From a virus (taxonomy: Duplodnaviria; Heunggongvirae; Uroviricota; Caudoviricetes), in IMG/VR virus record IMGVR_UViG_2698536395_000013: 15,945 nucleotides of DNA; one strand, given 5' to 3'. Both the position numbers and the translations under genes were made by a program. The notes below the pieces were generated by a model, which worked only from the letters and a program-made list of their open reading frames with translations, was not told where the DNA came from and ran no database searches. Position 1 is the stretch's first letter. The number at the start of each line of letters is the position of its first letter. Shown piece by piece: positions 1,016-12,296 of the stretch.

Positions 1016-2098
1016 ATGAAAAAATTAACAGTGGCAATTTCTGCTGTAGCTGCATCAGTACTGATGGCGATGTCTGCTCAGGCAGCTGAAATTTATAATA
1101 AAGACAGTAACAAGCTGGATCTGTACGGGAAAGTTAATGCTAAGCACTACTTCTCCTCTAATGATGCAGATGATGGTGATACTACTTATGCCCGTCTTGG
1201 CTTCAAAGGTGAAACCCAAATCAACGATCAACTGACTGGTTTCGGTCAGTGGGAATATGAATTCAAAGGCAACCGCGCTGAATCTCAAGGTTCCTCCAAA
1301 GATAAAACCCGTCTTGCCTTCGCTGGCCTGAAATTCGGTGACTACGGCTCCATCGATTATGGCCGTAACTACGGTGTAGCATACGATATTGGTGCATGGA
1401 CCGACGTTCTGCCAGAATTCGGTGGCGATACCTGGACCCAAACAGATGTATTCATGACTGGTCGCACCACAGGTGTTGCAACTTATCGTAACAATGACTT
1501 CTTTGGTCTGGTTGATGGTCTGAACTTTGCTGCTCAGTATCAGGGTAAAAATGACCGTACTGACGTAACTCAAGCTAATGGTGATGGTTTCGGTTTCTCC
1601 ACTACTTATGAGTATGAAGGTTTCGGCGTAGGTGCAACCTATGCTAAATCTGATCGCACTAATAATCAGGTTATCTACGGTAACAACAGCCTGAATGCAT
1701 CTGGTCAAAATGCTGAAGTATGGGCAGCTGGTCTGAAATATGATGCGAACAACATCTATCTGGCTACTACCTATTCTGAAACCCAAAACATGACTGTTTT
1801 TGGTAAAAACCATATTGCCAACAAAGCACAAAACTTCGAAGTAGTTGCACAATATCAGTTCGACTTCGGTCTGCGTCCGTCCGTTGCTTATCTGCAATCT
1901 AAAGGGAAAGACTTGGGTGCTTGGGGTGATCAGGACCTGGTTGAATATATTGATGTAGGTGCAACCTATTACTTCAACAAAAATATGTCCACTTTTGTTG
2001 ACTACAAAATCAACCTGATTGATAAGAGCGATTTCACGAAAGCATCTGGCGTTGCTACCGATGATATCGTTGCTGTAGGTATGGTTTACCAGTTCTAA
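1016..2098 (+). CDS. nmpC: OmpC/OmpF-family general porin (NmpC/OmpD-like), 360 aa, intact
   Basis: Signal peptide [23 protein letters not shown] then [16 protein letters not shown], typical porin beta-strand periodicity, and a C-terminal ...VGMVYQF ending in Phe. AAAGGG SD before the ATG. Lies antisense between Q and the holin, as nmpC does in DLP12. Confidence 0.9.
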
Positions 2099-4381: not shown

Positions 4382-4783
4382 TTATTTTAACTCATAGATC
4401 AGACAGTCAACGATTTCTAAACCATTTACCATAGAATTAGAAACGCGAACTTTACCATCGTTGACTCTAGCAAATCCTTTTAACATTTTATAAACAAAAG
4501 CTGAATCCCCCTTAGCCTCAATTGCTTCTAATGGTATCGGCTTATACTTTTTTGATATGCTATTTCTATTTATCTCACTGATTTTTCTATATATTTCTGC
4601 CGGCCCACGTTCTGAGAAGTCACTGATAACTAAAATATATCTCCAAGATAGATCTGGGTAATAAAACCACATTGCAGCATCAATAGTTAAATTCTGTAAC
4701 TTGAGTTTTTTTAACAAAAATTGACCTGAGAATTCCATATCTTTTGTCAACTCTCTGCCGATTACCAGTGTGCTTTTACCCAT
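4382..4783 (-). CDS. hypothetical protein, 133 aa, partner of the upstream HEPN gene
   Basis: ORF with GGAG SD 9 nt before the ATG at 4783; overlaps the HEPN stop by 22 nt, so the two genes are likely co-translated. AT-rich coding sequence. No motif recognised. Confidence 0.55.
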   Translation of the reverse strand: MGKSTLVIGRELTKDMEFSGQFLLKKLKLQNLTIDAAMWFYYPDLSWRYILVISDFSERGPAEIYRKISEINRNSISKKYKPIPLEAIEAKGDSAFVYKMLKGFARVNDGKVRVSNSMVNGLEIVDCLIYELK

Positions 4784-5178
4784 TTCAAAACTCCAGAATT
4801 TTGGTCACCTACAGCATCAAACAATTGTTCGGCCATAGCTTTACTTATGTTATTGTCGTATCTAAATTGCTCGCTCCAGTCTTTAACGACCGACCAGTTA
4901 ATCTCCAACGAAACATCATTTTTTGCGTCAGCAATCAAAATTTGATGTAAGTTGGCAATTTTGAGAAGTTGCGACAAATCATGAGTATATGAATCATTTA
5001 CGACTTTTTTGTTTGGAAACTCATGTTGTAAAAATGACTTGGCAATACAGGCCTTCAATGCACATTCAACTGCATACCCACAAAGATAATATGCACCATG
5101 AAAAAAGCCATGATCAAGCAAGCATTTGGCCTCATTAAGCCTAGTGTCAGATAATGCTTCAAGGTCGTTTTTATTCAT
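4762..5178 (-). CDS. HEPN-domain protein, 138 aa
   Basis: Translation ...EAKCLLDHGFFHGAYYLCGYAVECALKACIAKSFLQHEFPNKKVVNDSYTHDLSQLLKIANL... matches the classic HEPN helical pattern (A.E.ALKA ... tHDL..Ll). No canonical R-x4-6-H is visible before the His, so catalytic status is uncertain. Confidence 0.65.
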   Translation of the reverse strand: MNKNDLEALSDTRLNEAKCLLDHGFFHGAYYLCGYAVECALKACIAKSFLQHEFPNKKVVNDSYTHDLSQLLKIANLHQILIADAKNDVSLEINWSVVKDWSEQFRYDNNISKAMAEQLFDAVGDQNSGVLKWVKAHW

Positions 5179-5477: not shown

Positions 5478-6221
5478 TTACAGCCGTTCAGAACGTAAAT
5501 GCGTCAATACTCGACTCCACTTATCATCCTGCCACGGCCGGAATTTTACATGTGCCGTTTCTCTGGCAAGGATTGCCTGTGCCTTATTGAGTATCCGGGG
5601 ATATTCTTGTTCGATTGAAGTGAAGCGACCGGCTTCGCGGTGTTCTGCTACCTGAAGAAGCGGAGTGACGTTTTGGCAAGCGGTTAACATTGTGTCACTT
5701 GCCCGCCATAACCAAGCAAGTGTGCAAAGTTCGTTATCAGTGAATTGTTTTGTGATTGGGGATTGTTGAATTTCTCGATCGAGAATATCCAGCACCCAGC
5801 GGCGGAATTCTTTGGCCACAGGAGTGCGGGCGAACATGGCGATCAGATGGGCGCCACGGAGGGAGAAAATGCGAGTCTTCTTACGATAATTTCCTGAGGT
5901 CGTTGATTCGACGACCTGAGACATTCCGTCAGTAAACTCATCAATATTTTTGTTGTAGATGTCGGTTACTGCTTTGGTGCTGGCATATTTTAATGCTGCC
6001 GCCAATTCTTTGCTGGTAAACCAGATCTGGTTGTTGTGATTTATAGGAGTGAATTTTACATCGCGGAATGCGAGCTGAGTGACCATAGCGATAATCTCGT
6101 TTTGAATTTGAGCTATCACCACCGACGACGCCAATCGACTGGTGGTGGACTGTGCAAGGTTGGCGTAACCGGTCAAAACGAAATCCGGCGCTTCCGAAGA
6201 AGCCCTCACACAGCCCACCAT
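5478..6221 (-). CDS. Bro-N domain protein (Roi / antirepressor-like), about 247 aa; start uncertain
   Basis: Translation contains FRDVKFTPINHNNQIWFTSKELAAALKYASTKAVTDIYNKNIDEF, which resembles the Bro-N DNA-binding domain. Start chosen at MVGCV (ATG 6221) because the longer track ORF (to 6323) would read through an intrinsic terminator at 6249-6270. A later start at MVTQ (6089) is possible. Confidence 0.55.
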   Translation of the reverse strand: MVGCVRASSEAPDFVLTGYANLAQSTTSRLASSVVIAQIQNEIIAMVTQLAFRDVKFTPINHNNQIWFTSKELAAALKYASTKAVTDIYNKNIDEFTDGMSQVVESTTSGNYRKKTRIFSLRGAHLIAMFARTPVAKEFRRWVLDILDREIQQSPITKQFTDNELCTLAWLWRASDTMLTACQNVTPLLQVAEHREAGRFTSIEQEYPRILNKAQAILARETAHVKFRPWQDDKWSRVLTHLRSERL

Positions 6222-6248
6222 AATTTTTGTGTAGACGTGCACTGCGCA

Positions 6249-6270
6249 TAAAAAAACCGCGAACGCGGTT
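6249..6270 (-). terminator. intrinsic terminator on minus strand (nin-region tR-like) immediately upstream of the Bro-N gene
   Basis: 6-bp stem AACCGC/GCGGUU with a 4-nt loop, followed on the minus strand by UUUUUUA (plus 6249-6254 is TAAAAAA). Confidence 0.5.
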
Positions 6271-6330
6271 ATGCGTCGTTTTGATGTCCGGGACGCCAAT
6301 CCCGTGTGCCGATTTTGCGGCAACGCACAG

Positions 6331-6838: not shown

Positions 6839-7186
6839 ATGACTATCAAAGCGACTGACATAGAGATTCTTCATCGTTATGCTGAAGGGGTAATGGAACG
6901 TTCTAACCATCATGCAAAAAATGTTGGTGCAGCCGCTCTTACATTGCTAGGAGGTGTTATCTGGAAAGCCCTGCCCGGATCAATCGAGATAAGAACGTAT
7001 AACGGAAGTCTTGCAAATATGGTGTGGTGGCAAAGCGAAAGAACATTAAAAAATTATGCAATCTCATACAACCATAATTCATGTGAAATTGAAATGAGAG
7101 ATGAATCAGTCAAAGGTGCTGTATTATTTAGCATTTCCAACGAAACCACTCCAGAAAAAATATTATCACAGCTTTCTGAGCTTTAA
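6839..7186 (+). CDS. hypothetical protein, 115 aa, solitary plus-strand gene inside the minus-strand early-right operon
   Basis: ORF MTIKATDIEILHRYAEGVMERSNHHAKNVGAAALTLLGGVIWKALPGSIEIRTYNGSLANMVWWQSERTLKNY.... Very AT-rich gene and upstream region. Extended -10 TGcTATATT at 6777-6785. Followed by a hairpin at 7192-7209. No family recognised. Confidence 0.55.
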   Translation: MTIKATDIEILHRYAEGVMERSNHHAKNVGAAALTLLGGVIWKALPGSIEIRTYNGSLANMVWWQSERTLKNYAISYNHNSCEIEMRDESVKGAVLFSISNETTPEKILSQLSEL

Positions 7187-9713: not shown

Positions 9714-9944
9714 TTAAGCTGCGTTCTTTTCGGTGTGTGGAAACAACTTCGGAAGATCCGGGCGAATCTGGTATGCCTTCACTACTCCACCAGTAGCCGT
9801 AACAATGCTGCCGACATGTTCAGGGGATACCTTTGCTTTGTTGTGAAGCCACTTATAGACGGCCTGCTGTGAAACTTCGCAGGCAGCGCCCAGTTTCTTT
9901 TGTGAACCAACGATATTGATCGCTGTTTTGATAGCTGGGTTCAT
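9714..9944 (-). CDS. cro: Cro-like HTH repressor (Cro/YdaS family), 76 aa
   Basis: Translation MNPAIKTAINIVGSQKKLGAACEVSQQAVYKWLHNKAKVSPEH contains a helix-turn-helix (QKKLGAACEVSQQAVYKW). GGAGG SD. Divergent from cI across an operator region. Confidence 0.7.
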   Translation of the reverse strand: MNPAIKTAINIVGSQKKLGAACEVSQQAVYKWLHNKAKVSPEHVGSIVTATGGVVKAYQIRPDLPKLFPHTEKNAA

Positions 9945-10048
9945 AACAACCTCCGTGGTTAATTTGAATCAAGATTAAAACTATGGTTGTCTTTAGTCAA
10001 CAACCATTTTCGTTTGATGGAATAAAACCTTGGTTGTACATTTGGACT
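9945..10048. promoter_or_regulatory. OR region: divergent pR (minus, for cro) and pRM (plus, for cI) with operator palindromes
   Basis: 25-bp palindrome ATGGTTGT-N9-ACAACCAT at 9983-10007 overlaps the minus-strand -35 TTGACT of a pR candidate. A further TGGTTGTACA half-site at 10031-10040 overlaps the pRM -10 candidate TACATT (10037-10042), with -35 TTGATG at 10015-10020. Confidence 0.5.
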
Positions 10049-10738
10049 ATGAAAACAACACTCTCAGAAAGACTTAAAGAAGCCAGATTAGCGCGAGGCC
10101 TTACACAAAAGGCGCTTGGGGATTTGGTCGGGGTTAGCCAGGCTGCTATTCAGAAAATCGAAACAGGGAAAGCTAATCAAACAACTAAAATCGTGGAGAT
10201 CGCGAACGCTTTGGGTGTGCGCGCAGAATGGTTATCTTCTGGCGTTGGAAATATGTCAGACAGTACAGTGCAACCAATACAATCAACTGTCAGCCATTCC
10301 AAATACTTCAAGATTGACGTTCTTGATATAGAAGTCAGTGCTGGGCCGGGAGTCATCAACCGTGAGTTTGTAGAAGTTCTACGCTCGGTTGAGTACTCGT
10401 TTGACGATGCTCGTCACATGTTCGATGGTAGGAAGGCAGAAAATATCCGCATCATTAACGTGCGTGGTGACAGCATGTCAGGAACGATCGAACCAGGTGA
10501 TCTGCTGTTCGTTGATATCACGGTTAAATCTTTCGACGGTGATGGTATCTATGCATTTCTGTACGACGACACCGCCCATGTAAAGCGCCTGCAAATGATG
10601 AAGGATAAACTGCTGGTTATCTCTGATAACAAGAGCTACTCACCGTGGGACCCTATCGAGAAAGACGAGATGAACCGGGTATTCATATTCGGTAAGGTTA
10701 TTGGGAGCATGCCGCAGACGTACAGAAAACACGGATAA
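10049..10738 (+). CDS. cI: CI-type prophage repressor (N-terminal HTH, C-terminal S24 LexA-like autopeptidase), 229 aa, probably leaderless
   Basis: Translation MKTTLSERLKEARLARGLTQKALGDLVGVSQAAIQKIETGKA (HTH) ... INVRGDSMSGTIEPGDLLFVD ... VKRL (Ser/Lys dyad context). No SD; the ATG lies about 7 nt after the putative -10. The upstream in-frame ATG at 9983 lies inside the operator and is rejected. Confidence 0.85.
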   Translation: MKTTLSERLKEARLARGLTQKALGDLVGVSQAAIQKIETGKANQTTKIVEIANALGVRAEWLSSGVGNMSDSTVQPIQSTVSHSKYFKIDVLDIEVSAGPGVINREFVEVLRSVEYSFDDARHMFDGRKAENIRIINVRGDSMSGTIEPGDLLFVDITVKSFDGDGIYAFLYDDTAHVKRLQMMKDKLLVISDNKSYSPWDPIEKDEMNRVFIFGKVIGSMPQTYRKHG

Positions 10739-10819
10739 TCAGCCGCGTGTTGATGAGGCTTTTGGGTAATACGCTGAAGAAAATACCTTATAAAAAATAA
10801 CATTACGGGAAAGGCAAAA

Positions 10820-11083
10820 ATGAGTAATAAAACACTTGTTAAAAAATCAAATAACTGTGTCGATGCATACGCCGACGCGTTTGGCTACTCTTCGTTTGGT
10901 GACGGCTCTCAGCGCCTAGGTTCAATTTCTTTTTTTCATAATGTAACTGAATGGCCTGTTGATGAAAGTGACGATGTTGAGAACATAAAGTACAACATTG
11001 CAACCATTAGAATGCCCGAAGAATTGATGCTTAAATTGGCTGACTTCATTCGCGACCAGCATGACAAAGCTAAAACAAACTAA
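10820..11083 (+). CDS. hypothetical acidic protein, 87 aa, first gene in the rexA-equivalent position
   Basis: ORF downstream of cI on the same strand; AT-rich; GGGAAAGG upstream of the ATG. No family recognised. Confidence 0.5.
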   Translation: MSNKTLVKKSNNCVDAYADAFGYSSFGDGSQRLGSISFFHNVTEWPVDESDDVENIKYNIATIRMPEELMLKLADFIRDQHDKAKTN

Positions 11084-11095
11084 TCGTAATTAATT

Positions 11096-11539
11096 ATGAA
11101 ACACGATTATTACGAAGCTCCAAACCTAAATGATAAAATTGCAAAGGCGGCAGAATCATTTTGTTTGCACTCCAGTGCGTCTTCCCAGCTAGCAGGTATA
11201 TCTGGAAAAAGATGGGACATGCTACAATCAAGTGGTAGCAGTGGGTCTGGGAGTGATAACATGCCTGAAAAAGTTGCAAAACTGGAGTCCGATGTTGCTC
11301 ATATCAAACGAGACGTTGATGAACTTAAAACAGACGTTAAAGCTATCGACAAAAATATGATAACTATTCTTGCACGTCTGGACTCTATAAAAGAATCCTT
11401 AACAAACAAGCCATCAAGTGATGCTGTCGATAGAAAGATTTCAGACGCAAAGCTTGCGGTATTGCTTGGTGTTCCAGCAATCATCGCTGCAGGAACAGGA
11501 CTTTATAAGCTATCAATGTACTTTTTCTTTAGTGCTTAA
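11096..11539 (+). CDS. hypothetical coiled-coil protein with C-terminal transmembrane anchor, 147 aa (alternative start at 11261 gives 92 aa)
   Basis: Heptad-like segment KVAKLESDVAHIKRDVDELKTDVKAIDKNMITILARLDSIKESL followed by the hydrophobic LAVLLGVPAIIAAGTGLY. The ATG at 11096 has no SD; the in-frame ATG at 11261 has GGGAG upstream. Confidence 0.5.
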   Translation: MKHDYYEAPNLNDKIAKAAESFCLHSSASSQLAGISGKRWDMLQSSGSSGSGSDNMPEKVAKLESDVAHIKRDVDELKTDVKAIDKNMITILARLDSIKESLTNKPSSDAVDRKISDAKLAVLLGVPAIIAAGTGLYKLSMYFFFSA

Positions 11540-11613
11540 GAAAATGCTCGCACCCTTGCATTAGGTAAAGCGATTTTTCATTCCCCATTACCCTCGCTCT
11601 TAACCAATCATCT

Positions 11614-11643
11614 AAACCCGGCCACCGTGCCGGGTTTTCTTTT
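11614..11643 (+). terminator. intrinsic terminator ending the cI-87aa-147aa transcript (timm-like)
   Basis: Stem CCCGGC (11617-11622) / GCCGGG (11629-11634), extendable to AAACCCGGC/GCCGGGTTT, followed by TTTTCTTTT. Confidence 0.6.
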
Positions 11644-11769
11644 GCCCTCCCCTCATCATACACCGTTCAAAAAAACCACCACGACCTCGCTTCAGTTATC
11701 GCTATGCGATGCAAGTCACAAAATAAATCCATCTTAAATACAACCAGTTATATCTAAAACAACCAACAA

Positions 11770-11812
11770 AACAACTTTTGTTGTTGACGATAAAACAACT
11801 ATAGTTTTAAAT
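11770..11812 (+). promoter_or_regulatory. candidate pL with OL operator palindrome
   Basis: -35 TTGTTG (11778-11783), 16-nt spacer, -10 TATAGT (11800-11805). The perfect palindrome AACAACTTTTGTTGTT (11770-11785) overlaps the -35 and shares the ACAAC/GTTGT half-site with the OR region. Confidence 0.4.
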
Positions 11813-12005
11813 GAGTTCATCGCAACAACACAACGATACGGCAATCACCTGATTCACCGTTGCGATGACCGCTTAGATCCGCAGCTTGAATTTCAGCAGG
11901 CTTCGGGGAGTGCGAGGGATGAAACGGACGCGTGAACGTCGGTGTGACCAGCTGAAATCAACTCAACATTTCATACCTTAGTCGCTTCAACGAGGCGGCT
12001 TAGTT

Positions 12006-12296
12006 ATGACAACCGGCGGCCATCCACCGCCTGAATACGCGCAGAAGTCTTTATATGTTCAGCAGCCCAGCTTACGGGCAGGAGTTTTTATGGTTCATCA
12101 ACATTACGGAACGCAGACCGTTAATCGCGGTGCGGTCATGCCAGGAATGCTGGTCAAACGCAAAGATGGTACCTGGACTGCATCAGCTAATTTACGCGGA
12201 CGACTTTATCTGCATCGCGGCATTGAGCGCACTTATACCCGTGACTTGCTCGTGGAAGTTTTTCTCGACGGACGCGGCAACGCTCTGAATCACTAA
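12006..12296 (+). CDS. hypothetical protein, 96 aa, in the kil/cIII position upstream of gam; possibly the C-terminal part of an interrupted reading frame (see findings)
   Basis: ORF in the same frame as the Arg-rich 20-codon ORF at 11919-11981, separated from it by a TAG. No family recognised. Confidence 0.35.
   Translation: MTTGGHPPPEYAQKSLYVQQPSLRAGVFMVHQHYGTQTVNRGAVMPGMLVKRKDGTWTASANLRGRLYLHRGIERTYTRDLLVEVFLDGRGNALNH

What the first reader, a model, noticed from the sequence alone, without database searches (positions are those of the whole stretch)
10820..11643. Two-gene module in the rexAB position: acidic 87-aa protein plus coiled-coil tail-anchored membrane protein
In lambda the genes co-transcribed with cI from pRM are rexA and rexB, an abortive-infection system with a membrane effector. 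Here the same slot holds two unrelated AT-rich genes. The second encodes a heptad-like coiled coil ending in one C-terminal TM helix, resembling small membrane-damaging effectors such as XhlA-type proteins (weak, from memory). The unit ends in a terminator at 11614-11643. This is a candidate non-Rex exclusion system expressed in the lysogen.
Basis: partly seen in the sequence, partly recalled or inferred. Interest (0 to 1): 0.7.

Follow-up and report, generated by a model that had tools for sequence, protein, structure and literature searches.

The report
Uncharacterised two-gene membrane cassette behind cI
Two real but unstudied genes sit where phage lambda keeps its rexAB defence genes: a small soluble protein and a membrane-anchored coiled-coil protein. 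Related cassettes recur just behind the repressor genes of many unrelated prophages, so this is a good untested candidate for a new phage-exclusion system.

Summary
Gene A (10820-11083, 87 aa) and gene B (11096-11539, 147 aa) lie between cI (10049-10738) and a strong terminator (11614-11647). The OL/pL operators follow the terminator, so this is the lambda rexAB slot. The window is a DLP12-type prophage at argU of E. coli O26:H11.

Both genes are under purifying selection and have 38-40% GC against about 50% in the flanks. They are an insertion: most E. coli prophages with the same cI and terminator have an empty slot.

B has a perfect heptad coiled coil, a KKPS hinge and one highly conserved C-terminal TM helix. 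Neither protein matches RexA/B, SieA/B, any Pfam or NCBIfam family above threshold, or any PADLOC model beyond generic coiled-coil matches. The XhlA resemblance is generic coiled-coil similarity.

New findings:
- The B core always follows a variable partner gene, and the partner family predicts B's N-terminal segment.
- In 14 of 20 context types the cassette sits directly behind a lysogeny repressor (cI-type, short HTH, or Mnt in the P22 sieA slot).
- All 11 loci examined have an in-frame internal ATG/GTG with a strong Shine-Dalgarno at the start of the coiled coil. This suggests two isoforms, as in P22 sieB/esc.

Function is inferred, not shown. The most likely role is a repressor-operon phage-exclusion module.

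The parts
10049..10738 (+). cI-type prophage repressor (HTH_3 + Peptidase_S24). It is the upstream gene of the operon that carries the module.
   Evidence: Pfam hits at 1.2e-18 and 5.4e-13. phrog_4 transcriptional repressor. Divergent cro at 9714-9944.
10739..10819 (+). 81-nt spacer between cI and gene A. It has no promoter-like or + strand terminator-like site and marks the left edge of the inserted cargo.
   Evidence: Promoter and terminator scan. Sequences diverge from empty-slot prophages immediately after the cI stop codon.
10820..11083 (+). Gene A: an 87-aa soluble, mildly acidic protein (phrog_4231, unknown function). The predicted fold is a 3-4-stranded sheet plus a C-terminal helix.
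11096..11539 (+). Gene B, long form: a 147-aa tail-anchored coiled-coil membrane protein (phrog_3556, unknown function). The ATG has no Shine-Dalgarno and lies 12 nt after the stop codon of A.
   Evidence: The model shows helix 11-26, disorder 27-55, helix 56-104, a KPS break and helix 108-146. dN/dS is 0.09-0.13 for the core and 0.36-0.58 for the N-terminal segment.
11096..11260 (+). B N-terminal variable segment (residues 1-55, including a Ser/Gly-rich linker). Its type co-varies one-to-one with the partner-gene family.
   Evidence: Alignment A2. Partner and N-terminal clustering.
11249..11263 (+). GGGAG followed 7 nt later by an in-frame ATG (Met56). This is a candidate internal start for a 92-aa short isoform (coiled coil + TM).
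   Evidence: The sequence itself. ATG or GTG with a GGAGG-like motif 6-10 nt upstream in 11 of 11 loci. Gene callers chose this start in relatives whose upstream frame I confirmed open in the two loci checked, L016 and L017.
11261..11407 (+). Coiled-coil region of B (residues 56-104), with a perfect heptad register.
   Evidence: 14 of 14 a/d positions are hydrophobic in one register. Some relatives carry 7-residue insertions.
11408..11539 (+). KKPS hinge, juxtamembrane helix and C-terminal TM helix (about residues 118-138, LLGVPAIIAAGTGLYK). This is the most conserved part of the family. A stripe of small residues lies at 121/125/128/132/135.
   Evidence: Invariant columns K105 P106 S107 I115 S116 A118 K119 L120 L124 P127 G133 T134 K138. 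Hydropathy.
11614..11647 (+). Intrinsic terminator closing the cI operon. It is a backbone element shared by prophages with empty or differently filled slots.
11735..11812 (+). OL operators and the probable pL (TTGACG, 17 nt, TTAAAT), downstream of the terminator. They define the right border of the slot.
   Evidence: Inverted and direct matches to the OR operators. The promoter assignment is my reading of the sequence.

Best explanation
A and B form a mobile two-gene cassette (a 'moron', an add-on gene unit) inserted into the repressor operon of a DLP12-type lambdoid prophage. They are transcribed with cI in the lysogen.

B is a cytoplasm-facing, tail-anchored inner-membrane protein. It oligomerises through a heptad coiled coil and through a conserved TM helix rich in small residues. 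A is a small soluble protein that works with B's matching N-terminal segment as the specificity or regulatory part.

The most likely role is exclusion of other phages. In the Rex-like version I favour, infection is sensed through A and the B N-terminus, and the coiled-coil/TM core then damages or blocks the inner membrane. A short isoform of B from an internal start may tune or restrain the long form, as Esc does for SieB.

Shown here: gene reality, the insertion, architecture, partner-to-N-terminus matching, and the recurrent position behind repressors. Inferred: co-transcription, topology, the A-B interaction, the two isoforms, and any anti-phage or membrane-damaging activity.

The confidence of 0.35 is for the Rex-like triggered membrane-effector version. 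I put an anti-phage role of any kind at about 0.55, and 'a real cassette expressed with the repressor' at about 0.9.
For: Position and insertion:
- The pair sits between cI and OL/pL with no intervening promoter or terminator.
- The slot is empty in most of the at least 1032 E. coli genomes that share both flanks. In others it holds a BamE-like lipoprotein or a multi-TM protein.
- The cI-to-N region is a known hotspot that holds rexAB and bstA (PMC8585504).

Recurrence behind repressors:
- The cassette follows Mnt with an overlapping stop and start in P22-like prophages, in the orf59a/sieA region of P22.
- It follows unrelated cI-type or short HTH repressors in Serratia, Phaseolibacter, Symbiopectobacterium and others.
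- Overall this holds for 14 of 20 context types, about 43 of 58 IMG/VR loci.

Selection and architecture:
- Both genes are under purifying selection.
- B's architecture is established.
- The juxtamembrane and TM region is the most conserved part of the family.

Modularity:
- Partner family maps one-to-one to B N-terminal type, while the TM type can differ within a class.
- A1-family genes are always followed by a tail-anchored coiled-coil protein, even one with no detectable similarity to the B core.

Internal start: an ATG or GTG with a strong Shine-Dalgarno occurs in 11 of 11 loci. P22 sieB/esc is the annotated precedent.
Against: - There are no functional data of any kind, and no paper mentions the genes.
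- There is no homology to any known defence protein.
- A tail-anchored protein exposes almost nothing to the periplasm. That is unlike most injection-blocking Sie proteins.
- The partner-to-N-terminus covariation could partly reflect simple physical linkage of adjacent DNA.
- Gly codons are inherently similar to a Shine-Dalgarno sequence, so the internal-start signal could be a by-product of a flexible linker. In one lineage the gene caller placed the short start before the Gly run.
- The host prophage is defective, so the genes may be carried passively.
- Some Pantoea and Erwinia copies are chromosomal and lack a partner.
Confidence: 0.35

Rival explanations
1. Non-abortive superinfection exclusion. 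B is a harmless membrane tether and scaffold. It holds the variable partner protein at the cytoplasmic face of the inner membrane. There the partner intercepts ejection proteins or DNA of incoming phages, or occupies a host membrane protein that they need.
For: The partner is the variable element and B is the constant one. The cassette occupies the sieA region of P22-like phages. SieA acts at the inner membrane on ejection proteins (PMC10883804). Conserved TM residues could reflect binding to a conserved host membrane protein.
Against: Almost none of B is periplasmic. Known Sie proteins differ in topology; SieA has 3 TM helices. Several alternative TM types exist, which fits poorly with one conserved host target.
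Confidence: 0.2
2. A toxin-antitoxin-like addiction or self-regulated membrane toxin. B is a small membrane toxin, and A (or the short or long isoform) neutralises it. The pair stabilises the prophage rather than defending against phages.
For: Two small, tightly coupled or overlapping genes. Partner and B N-terminus are matched. B has a small oligomerising TM protein architecture. One context lies next to a YafO toxin gene.
Against: There is no match to any TA family. The putative antitoxin lies upstream and would be the variable element across at least five unrelated families, which is unusual. The strong preference for repressor operons is more typical of lysogen-expressed exclusion genes. 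Partner-less copies persist in Pantoea chromosomes.
Confidence: 0.12
3. Lysogenic conversion unrelated to phages. A tail-anchored coiled-coil protein modifies host envelope or stress physiology, in the manner of the E. coli tail-anchored proteins ElaB and YqjD (from my own knowledge).
For: Expression in the lysogen is inferred from position. The tail-anchored coiled-coil architecture is established. The cassette is retained in a defective prophage in 205 of 5426 E. coli genomes.
Against: There is no sequence similarity to those host families. The cassette shows modular shuffling and a fast-evolving N-terminal segment (dN/dS 0.36-0.58). These features are more typical of conflict systems than of housekeeping physiology.
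Confidence: 0.13
4. A lytic-cycle membrane function: an XhlA-like or holin-accessory protein, or a lysis-timing factor.
For: Weak hits to PHROG 'hemolysin' families (1.4e-4 and 1.2e-3) and to XhlA. The dual-start idea recalls the holin/antiholin arrangement.
Against: XhlA scores far below its gathering threshold and no better than unrelated coiled-coil families. The genes lie in repressor operons, far from and often opposite to the lysis cassette. The window has its own essD/rrrD/rzpD cassette elsewhere in the prophage.
Confidence: 0.07

Closest known systems
Lambda RexA/RexB
   Same: Identical genomic slot, between cI and OL/pL in the repressor operon. Both are two genes: one soluble protein and one inner-membrane protein. 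Both are proposed to act in the lysogen.
   Different: No sequence similarity. RexA is 279 aa against 87 aa for A. From my own knowledge RexB is a multi-pass membrane protein; B has one C-terminal TM helix and a long cytoplasmic coiled coil. Here the soluble partner is interchangeable among unrelated families.
P22 SieA (with orf59a) downstream of mnt
   Same: Close relatives of A-B occupy the orf59a/sieA region of P22-like prophages, immediately behind mnt. Both include an inner-membrane product.
   Different: SieA has 3 predicted TM helices and its own promoter, and it is sufficient alone (PMC10883804). There is no similarity to A, B or orf59a.
P22 SieB/Esc (in-frame internal start giving a truncated self-inhibitor)
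   Same: B has a conserved in-frame internal start with a strong Shine-Dalgarno. It would yield a truncated isoform sharing the oligomerisation and membrane parts. sieB/esc is annotated this way in P22.
   Different: There is no sequence similarity. Production of two isoforms is not demonstrated here. The genomic position also differs, since sieB lies in the pL region.
BstA (BTP1 and other prophages)
   Same: Sits downstream of the cI repressor, presumably shares its promoter, and ends at a terminator (PMC8585504).
   Different: According to that paper, BstA is a single protein that localises to sites of phage DNA replication. A-B is a membrane-anchored two-gene unit. No PADLOC model of any defence system matched beyond coiled-coil noise.
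XhlA-type phage membrane proteins (PF10779)
   Same: Gross architecture: an N-terminal coiled coil and a C-terminal TM helix.
   Different: Scores 12.1 bits against a gathering score of 34.7, and is not distinguishable from other coiled-coil families. The genes are not in a lysis cassette.

Membership tests
Lambda Rex (RexA/RexB) | Sequence homology to RexA and RexB | tested here: not met
   BLASTP and family HMMs against lambda RexA and RexB gave E >= 0.35 and no more than 17 bits in an 8-sequence database.
Lambda Rex (RexA/RexB) | Located between cI and OL/pL and transcribed with cI | tested here: met
   Position shown, and compared with lambda. Co-transcription is inferred from the lack of a promoter or terminator, not measured.
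Lambda Rex (RexA/RexB) | Multi-pass membrane channel component | tested here: not met
   B has one hydrophobic segment, at residues 118-138.
Lambda Rex (RexA/RexB) | Abortive infection with loss of membrane potential | not testable with these tools
   Needs phage challenge and membrane-potential assays.
P22 SieA | Homology to SieA and a three-TM topology | tested here: not met
   No similarity. B has a single TM helix. SieA topology is taken from PMC10883804.
P22 SieA | Encoded downstream of mnt in immI | tested here: met
   True for relatives of the window cassette (L001, L002-6, L026, L029/30, L063). It is not true of the window copy itself.
SieB/Esc-type dual-start exclusion gene | In-frame internal initiation giving a truncated isoform | tested here: inconclusive
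   An internal ATG or GTG with a GGAGG-like motif occurs in 11 of 11 loci. Gene callers often pick it. There is no protein evidence.
SieB/Esc-type dual-start exclusion gene | Sequence homology to SieB | tested here: not met
XhlA (PF10779) | Score at or above the Pfam gathering threshold | tested here: not met
   12.1 bits against 34.7. 12 of 21 members give weak hits, best E 0.004. FlaC_arch, SlyX and others score as well or better.
XhlA (PF10779) | Encoded in a lysis cassette next to holin and endolysin | tested here: not met
   The module lies in the immunity region. The lysis genes essD/rrrD/rzpD are about 10 kb away.
Known anti-phage systems (PADLOC-DB v2) | Match to a model of a described or candidate defence protein | tested here: not met
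   A matched no family. B gave only coiled-coil matches to PbeC, LmuB and JetC at E >= 0.004.
Type II toxin-antitoxin | Recognisable toxin or antitoxin domain | tested here: not met
   No Pfam or NCBIfam family above threshold.
Type II toxin-antitoxin | Toxicity of one product neutralised by the other | not testable with these tools
   Needs expression experiments.
Prophage moron in the repressor operon (a generic class) | Insertion relative to otherwise identical prophages, atypical composition, and ending at a terminator | tested here: met
   Empty-slot relatives share the same cI and terminator. GC is 38-40% against about 50%. Terminator shown.

The most novel reading that the evidence does not exclude
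A-B represents a previously unrecognised modular class of prophage abortive-infection systems. A conserved tail-anchored coiled-coil membrane effector is armed by interchangeable sensor modules, each made of a partner protein and a matching N-terminal docking segment. The effector is held in check by its own internally initiated short isoform. The class has been recruited repeatedly into the operons of unrelated lysogeny repressors (cI-type, short HTH, Mnt) in Enterobacterales.
Probability: 0.3. Interest if true: 0.75.

Novelty: new variant of a known kind. Interest (0 to 1): 0.6.

Why it matters
If it is active, this would be a new phage-exclusion system. It is small (about 0.7 kb), it has a swappable specificity module, and its effector is simpler than the Rex system, whose mechanism is still described as poorly understood (PMC8585504).

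It is carried by the O26/O111 Shiga-toxin-producing E. coli (STEC) lineage and by Salmonella, Serratia, Klebsiella, Pantoea and Morganella prophages. It could therefore influence which phages, including Stx phages and therapeutic phages, can grow on these strains.

The recurrent placement behind three kinds of repressor also gives a simple rule for finding more such cargo. The survey confirms the cI-to-pL slot of DLP12-type prophages as a small cargo site for envelope proteins.

Tried and rejected
Family and model libraries:
- Pfam, NCBIfam and PADLOC gave only sub-threshold coiled-coil hits for B and nothing for A.
- PHROGs placed both proteins in unknown-function families.
- Scanning all 21 B-family members against Pfam showed that XhlA is no better than FlaC_arch, SlyX and similar families. 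XhlA kinship was therefore rejected.

Structure:
- A BFVD Foldseek search gave nothing at E <= 0.001.
- I use these results only as a fold description, not as homology.
- The afdb50 library was unavailable.
- The B model is long helices with low pLDDT (59.7), so I did not run a fold search on it.

Direct comparisons:
- Comparison with RexA/B, SieA/B, orf59a, the P22 holin and Rz found no similarity.
- hhalign of the A1 family against the 88-aa partner of L017 was only suggestive (E 0.0028, probability 11%). Against the 93-aa Rahnella partner it found nothing. I treat the partners as separate families.

RNA: Rfam found nothing at the module, the terminator or the pL leader. The 190-nt pL leader is only mildly structured, with z = -1.6.

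Literature: searches found no paper on these genes or locus tags.

Complex prediction: I considered predicting the A-B complex as a fusion protein.
Full report
WHERE THE WINDOW COMES FROM

The 2.7 kb around the finding is 100% identical to the chromosome of E. coli O26:H11 str. 11368 and many O26/O111 STEC genomes. It belongs to a DLP12-type lambdoid prophage at the argU tRNA gene. The prophage carries intD, exo/bet/gam, kil, cI, cro, O/P, rusA, quuD, an ompC-like porin gene and essD/rrrD/rzpD.

THE OBSERVATION

- Gene A (10820-11083, 87 aa) and gene B (11096-11539, 147 aa) are on the + strand, directly after cI (10049-10738; HTH_3 plus Peptidase_S24).
- A strong intrinsic terminator follows at 11614-11637 plus a T run. 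Its fold has z = -3.7.
- Operator-like repeats shared with OR (9975-10040) occur after the terminator at 11735-11810. They are followed by kil, gam, bet and exo.
- The pair therefore occupies exactly the position of rexA-rexB in lambda.
- No promoter-like site and no convincing + strand terminator lies between cI and 11614. Read-through from pRM/pRE is the simplest expectation, but this is an inference.
- The module has 38-40% GC against about 50% in the flanks.
- A is only mildly acidic, with pI 4.96.

THE GENES ARE REAL

Against orthologues at 75-95% protein identity, dN/dS is 0.05-0.12 for A. It is 0.09-0.13 for the B core and 0.36-0.58 for B's first 55 codons.

THE MODULE IS AN INSERTION

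I searched with the 3' end of cI joined to the terminator and pL region. At least 1032 complete E. coli genomes hold both flanks close together. In the rows sampled, most have a span about 105 nt longer than the query, which means an empty slot. One such locus (L019, strain H3) has about 125 nt of non-coding DNA and the same terminator.

Other prophages carry a 126-aa lipoprotein with a sub-threshold BamE match (21.5 bits against a 23.2 cut-off), or a 170-aa multi-TM protein, before the same terminator. The A-B module itself is in 205 of 5426 genomes.

The terminator is therefore backbone, not part of the module. The slot is a small cargo site that tends to hold envelope proteins. Owen et al. 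already describe the cI-to-N region as a mosaic hotspot that holds rexAB and bstA (PMC8585504).

WHAT THE PROTEINS LOOK LIKE

Gene B. The parts in order are:
- a short N-terminal helix at residues 11-26;
- a disordered Ser/Gly-rich stretch at 27-55;
- one long helix at 56-104, in which all 14 a/d heptad positions are hydrophobic;
- a KPS break;
- a final helix at 108-146 that contains the only hydrophobic segment, at about 118-138.

Across 21 relatives the most conserved part is the hinge, juxtamembrane and TM region: KKPS-x-D-x-V-D-K-K-I-S-D-A-K-L-A-V-L-L-G-V-P-A-I-I-A-I-G-T-G-x-Y-K. Some members carry exact 7-residue insertions in the coiled coil. Small residues at 121/125/128/132/135 follow a 4-3-4-3 spacing. 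That spacing would continue helix-helix packing into the membrane; this is my reading of the sequence.

With no signal sequence and fewer than 10 residues after the TM helix, an N-in, tail-anchored topology is the only plausible one. This is an inference.

WHAT THE PROTEINS ARE NOT

- A has no Pfam, NCBIfam or PADLOC match. B has only sub-threshold coiled-coil matches.
- PHROGs places them in phrog_4231 and phrog_3556, both of unknown function.
- Direct comparison with lambda RexA, RexB and SieB found nothing. The same was true for P22 SieA, SieB, orf59a, the holin and Rz.
- XhlA scores 12.1 bits against a gathering score of 34.7. Across the family it is one of many weak coiled-coil hits.
- No paper mentions the genes.

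HOW RARE THE FAMILY IS

- The B core gives 10 representatives at E <= 1e-30 and 29 at E <= 1e-10 among 1.84 billion proteins. Beyond that the hits include many long multi-repeat (generic coiled-coil) proteins alongside small, more distant tail-anchored relatives.
- It occurs in 8 of 185,579 species-representative genomes, all in Enterobacterales genera or MAGs apart from one unclassified MAG.
- Only one isolated phage of 50,697 records, Salmonella phage UPF_BP1, carries the pair.
- The A family has 37 clusters. All those that carry a source name are called 'hypothetical protein', and every named source organism belongs to Enterobacterales.

RESULT 1: RECURRENT POSITION BEHIND LYSOGENY REPRESSORS

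In UPF_BP1 and in P22-like prophages of several hosts, the cassette follows mnt. The mnt stop codon overlaps or abuts the first gene's start. P22 itself has orf59a and sieA in this region.

In other prophages the cassette follows unrelated cI-type (HTH plus S24) or short HTH repressors that are divergent from a cro-like gene. These include the Rac-like L017, Serratia L022, L024, L033, Phaseolibacter L037 and a pseudogenised copy in Symbiopectobacterium L040.

I made a systematic pass over 61 IMG/VR loci, of which 58 were resolved. The co-oriented upstream gene is a repressor in 14 of 20 distinct context types, about 43 of 58 loci. That is 8 HTH+S24, 5 HTH/Phage_CI_repr and 1 Arc/Mnt. Two types lie beside a DUF6246 tail-region gene, one beside a chromosomal AraC regulator, and three are unclear. 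Other tail-region sites were seen in Pantoea and Klebsiella.

Genes placed this way are expected to be made in the lysogen.

RESULT 2: MODULARITY

The B core is always preceded by a small gene, but the gene family differs:
- the A family (87-94 aa);
- a 93-99-aa family;
- a 139-167-aa beta-rich family;
- a 119-aa zinc-ribbon protein;
- an 88-aa protein.

Clustering shows that the partner family predicts the type of B's N-terminal segment essentially one-to-one. The TM type can differ within a class. UPF_BP1 shows this directly: it combines the window-type A and B N-terminus with a different coiled-coil/TM end.

Distant A-family genes in Morganella and Klebsiella are again followed by tail-anchored coiled-coil proteins. 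One of these has no detectable similarity to the B core.

The recombination joint therefore lies at the Gly-rich linker inside B, not at the gene boundary. I read the partner plus the B N-terminus as one functional unit, probably a physical complex. Simple linkage of adjacent DNA could contribute to the pattern.

RESULT 3: A POSSIBLE SECOND ISOFORM

In all 11 loci examined, the first codon of the conserved core is ATG (10 loci) or GTG (1 locus). It is preceded at 6-10 nt by GGGAG or GGAGG-type motifs encoded by the Gly codons.

In the window this is GGGAG at 11249-11253 and ATG at 11261. The long-form ATG at 11096 has no Shine-Dalgarno sequence and lies 12 nt after A's stop codon. Gene callers chose the internal start in many relatives. 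In the two loci I checked (L016 and L017) the upstream frame is open.

A 92-aa short form (coiled coil plus TM) may therefore be made alongside the 147-aa form. The annotated precedent in a prophage exclusion gene is P22 sieB/esc. This is suggestive only, because Gly codons are inherently similar to a Shine-Dalgarno sequence.

MOST LIKELY MECHANISM

The cassette is expressed with the repressor. B sits in the inner membrane as a coiled-coil oligomer facing the cytoplasm. A docks on B's N-terminal segment.

I favour a Rex-like scheme. A phage-derived signal acts on the A and B N-terminus unit. The conserved coiled-coil/TM core then perturbs the membrane and aborts the infection. The short isoform would modulate the long one.

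A non-abortive variant is nearly as plausible. In it, B is a tether that positions the partner where incoming DNA or ejection proteins arrive.

Less likely are a toxin-antitoxin-like addiction pair, a phage-unrelated lysogenic-conversion function, and a lysis accessory role.

Everything beyond architecture, position and evolutionary pattern is inference.

COMPARISON WITH KNOWN SYSTEMS AND NOVELTY

The cassette works like Rex in position and in pairing a soluble protein with a membrane protein. It is like SieA in its locus in P22-like phages, and possibly like SieB/Esc in gene organisation. It is a member of none of these; their defining homology and topology features were tested and not met.

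It is an uncharacterised family, best rated as a new variant of a known kind: lysogen-expressed prophage exclusion cargo in the repressor operon. The finding is a well-supported candidate rather than a discovery. Function is untested and the slot's hotspot nature is already known. The modular design and the recurrent recruitment behind repressors make it an unusually well-motivated target for experiment.

Noticed in passing
window 4382-5178 (- strand): Two overlapping genes in the nin region: a HEPN-domain protein (4762-5178, 138 aa) and a 133-aa hypothetical protein (4382-4783). The HEPN protein weakly matches the PADLOC candidate PDC-M28A (1.8e-7). This may be a second defence or toxin-antitoxin-like pair in the same prophage.
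   Followed up: partly
window 5478-6322 (- strand): A C4 antisense RNA (6138-6225, 82.5 bits) and isrK (6250-6322, 64.1 bits) lie just upstream of a P22AR C-terminal-domain antirepressor gene. This is a P1/P7-style antirepressor control module inside a lambdoid prophage.
   Followed up: no
window 11812-12090: There is no N-like antiterminator ORF between the probable pL and kil (12090-12296). The roughly 190-nt leader is only mildly structured (z -1.6) and has no Rfam match. How pL transcription passes downstream terminators here is unclear.
   Followed up: partly
L020 2130-2510 and L021 2191-2703 (E. coli prophages with the same cI or slot): Alternative cargo in the same cI-to-terminator slot: a 126-aa BamE-like lipoprotein (phrog_3135) and a 170-aa multi-TM protein (phrog_19124) preceded by a small TM ORF. 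Both are uncharacterised. They are plausible superinfection-exclusion candidates.
   Followed up: partly
protein P0070 (E. coli, 134 aa): An in-frame fusion. The first roughly 57 residues of an A-family protein are joined to the coiled-coil/TM end of the UPF_BP1-type B protein. This is apparently a deletion that fused the two genes.
   Followed up: no
L034-L039 (Pantoea/Erwinia chromosomes): B-family genes lie between an AraC-type regulator and a membrane transporter gene. Some have no partner gene. Others are preceded by a second, different tail-anchored coiled-coil ORF (85-99 aa). They look like remnants at an integration site or domesticated copies.
   Followed up: partly
L040 2752-3299 (Symbiopectobacterium MAG): A B homologue behind a cI-type repressor is split by a frameshift. 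This fits gene decay in a symbiont.
   Followed up: no
window 1016-2098 and 6839-7186: An OmpC/NmpC-like porin gene lies downstream of the Q antiterminator gene (2287-2685, - strand). It is an add-on gene, as in DLP12. A 115-aa + strand ORF with no PADLOC match lies between the antirepressor module and the replication genes.
   Followed up: no
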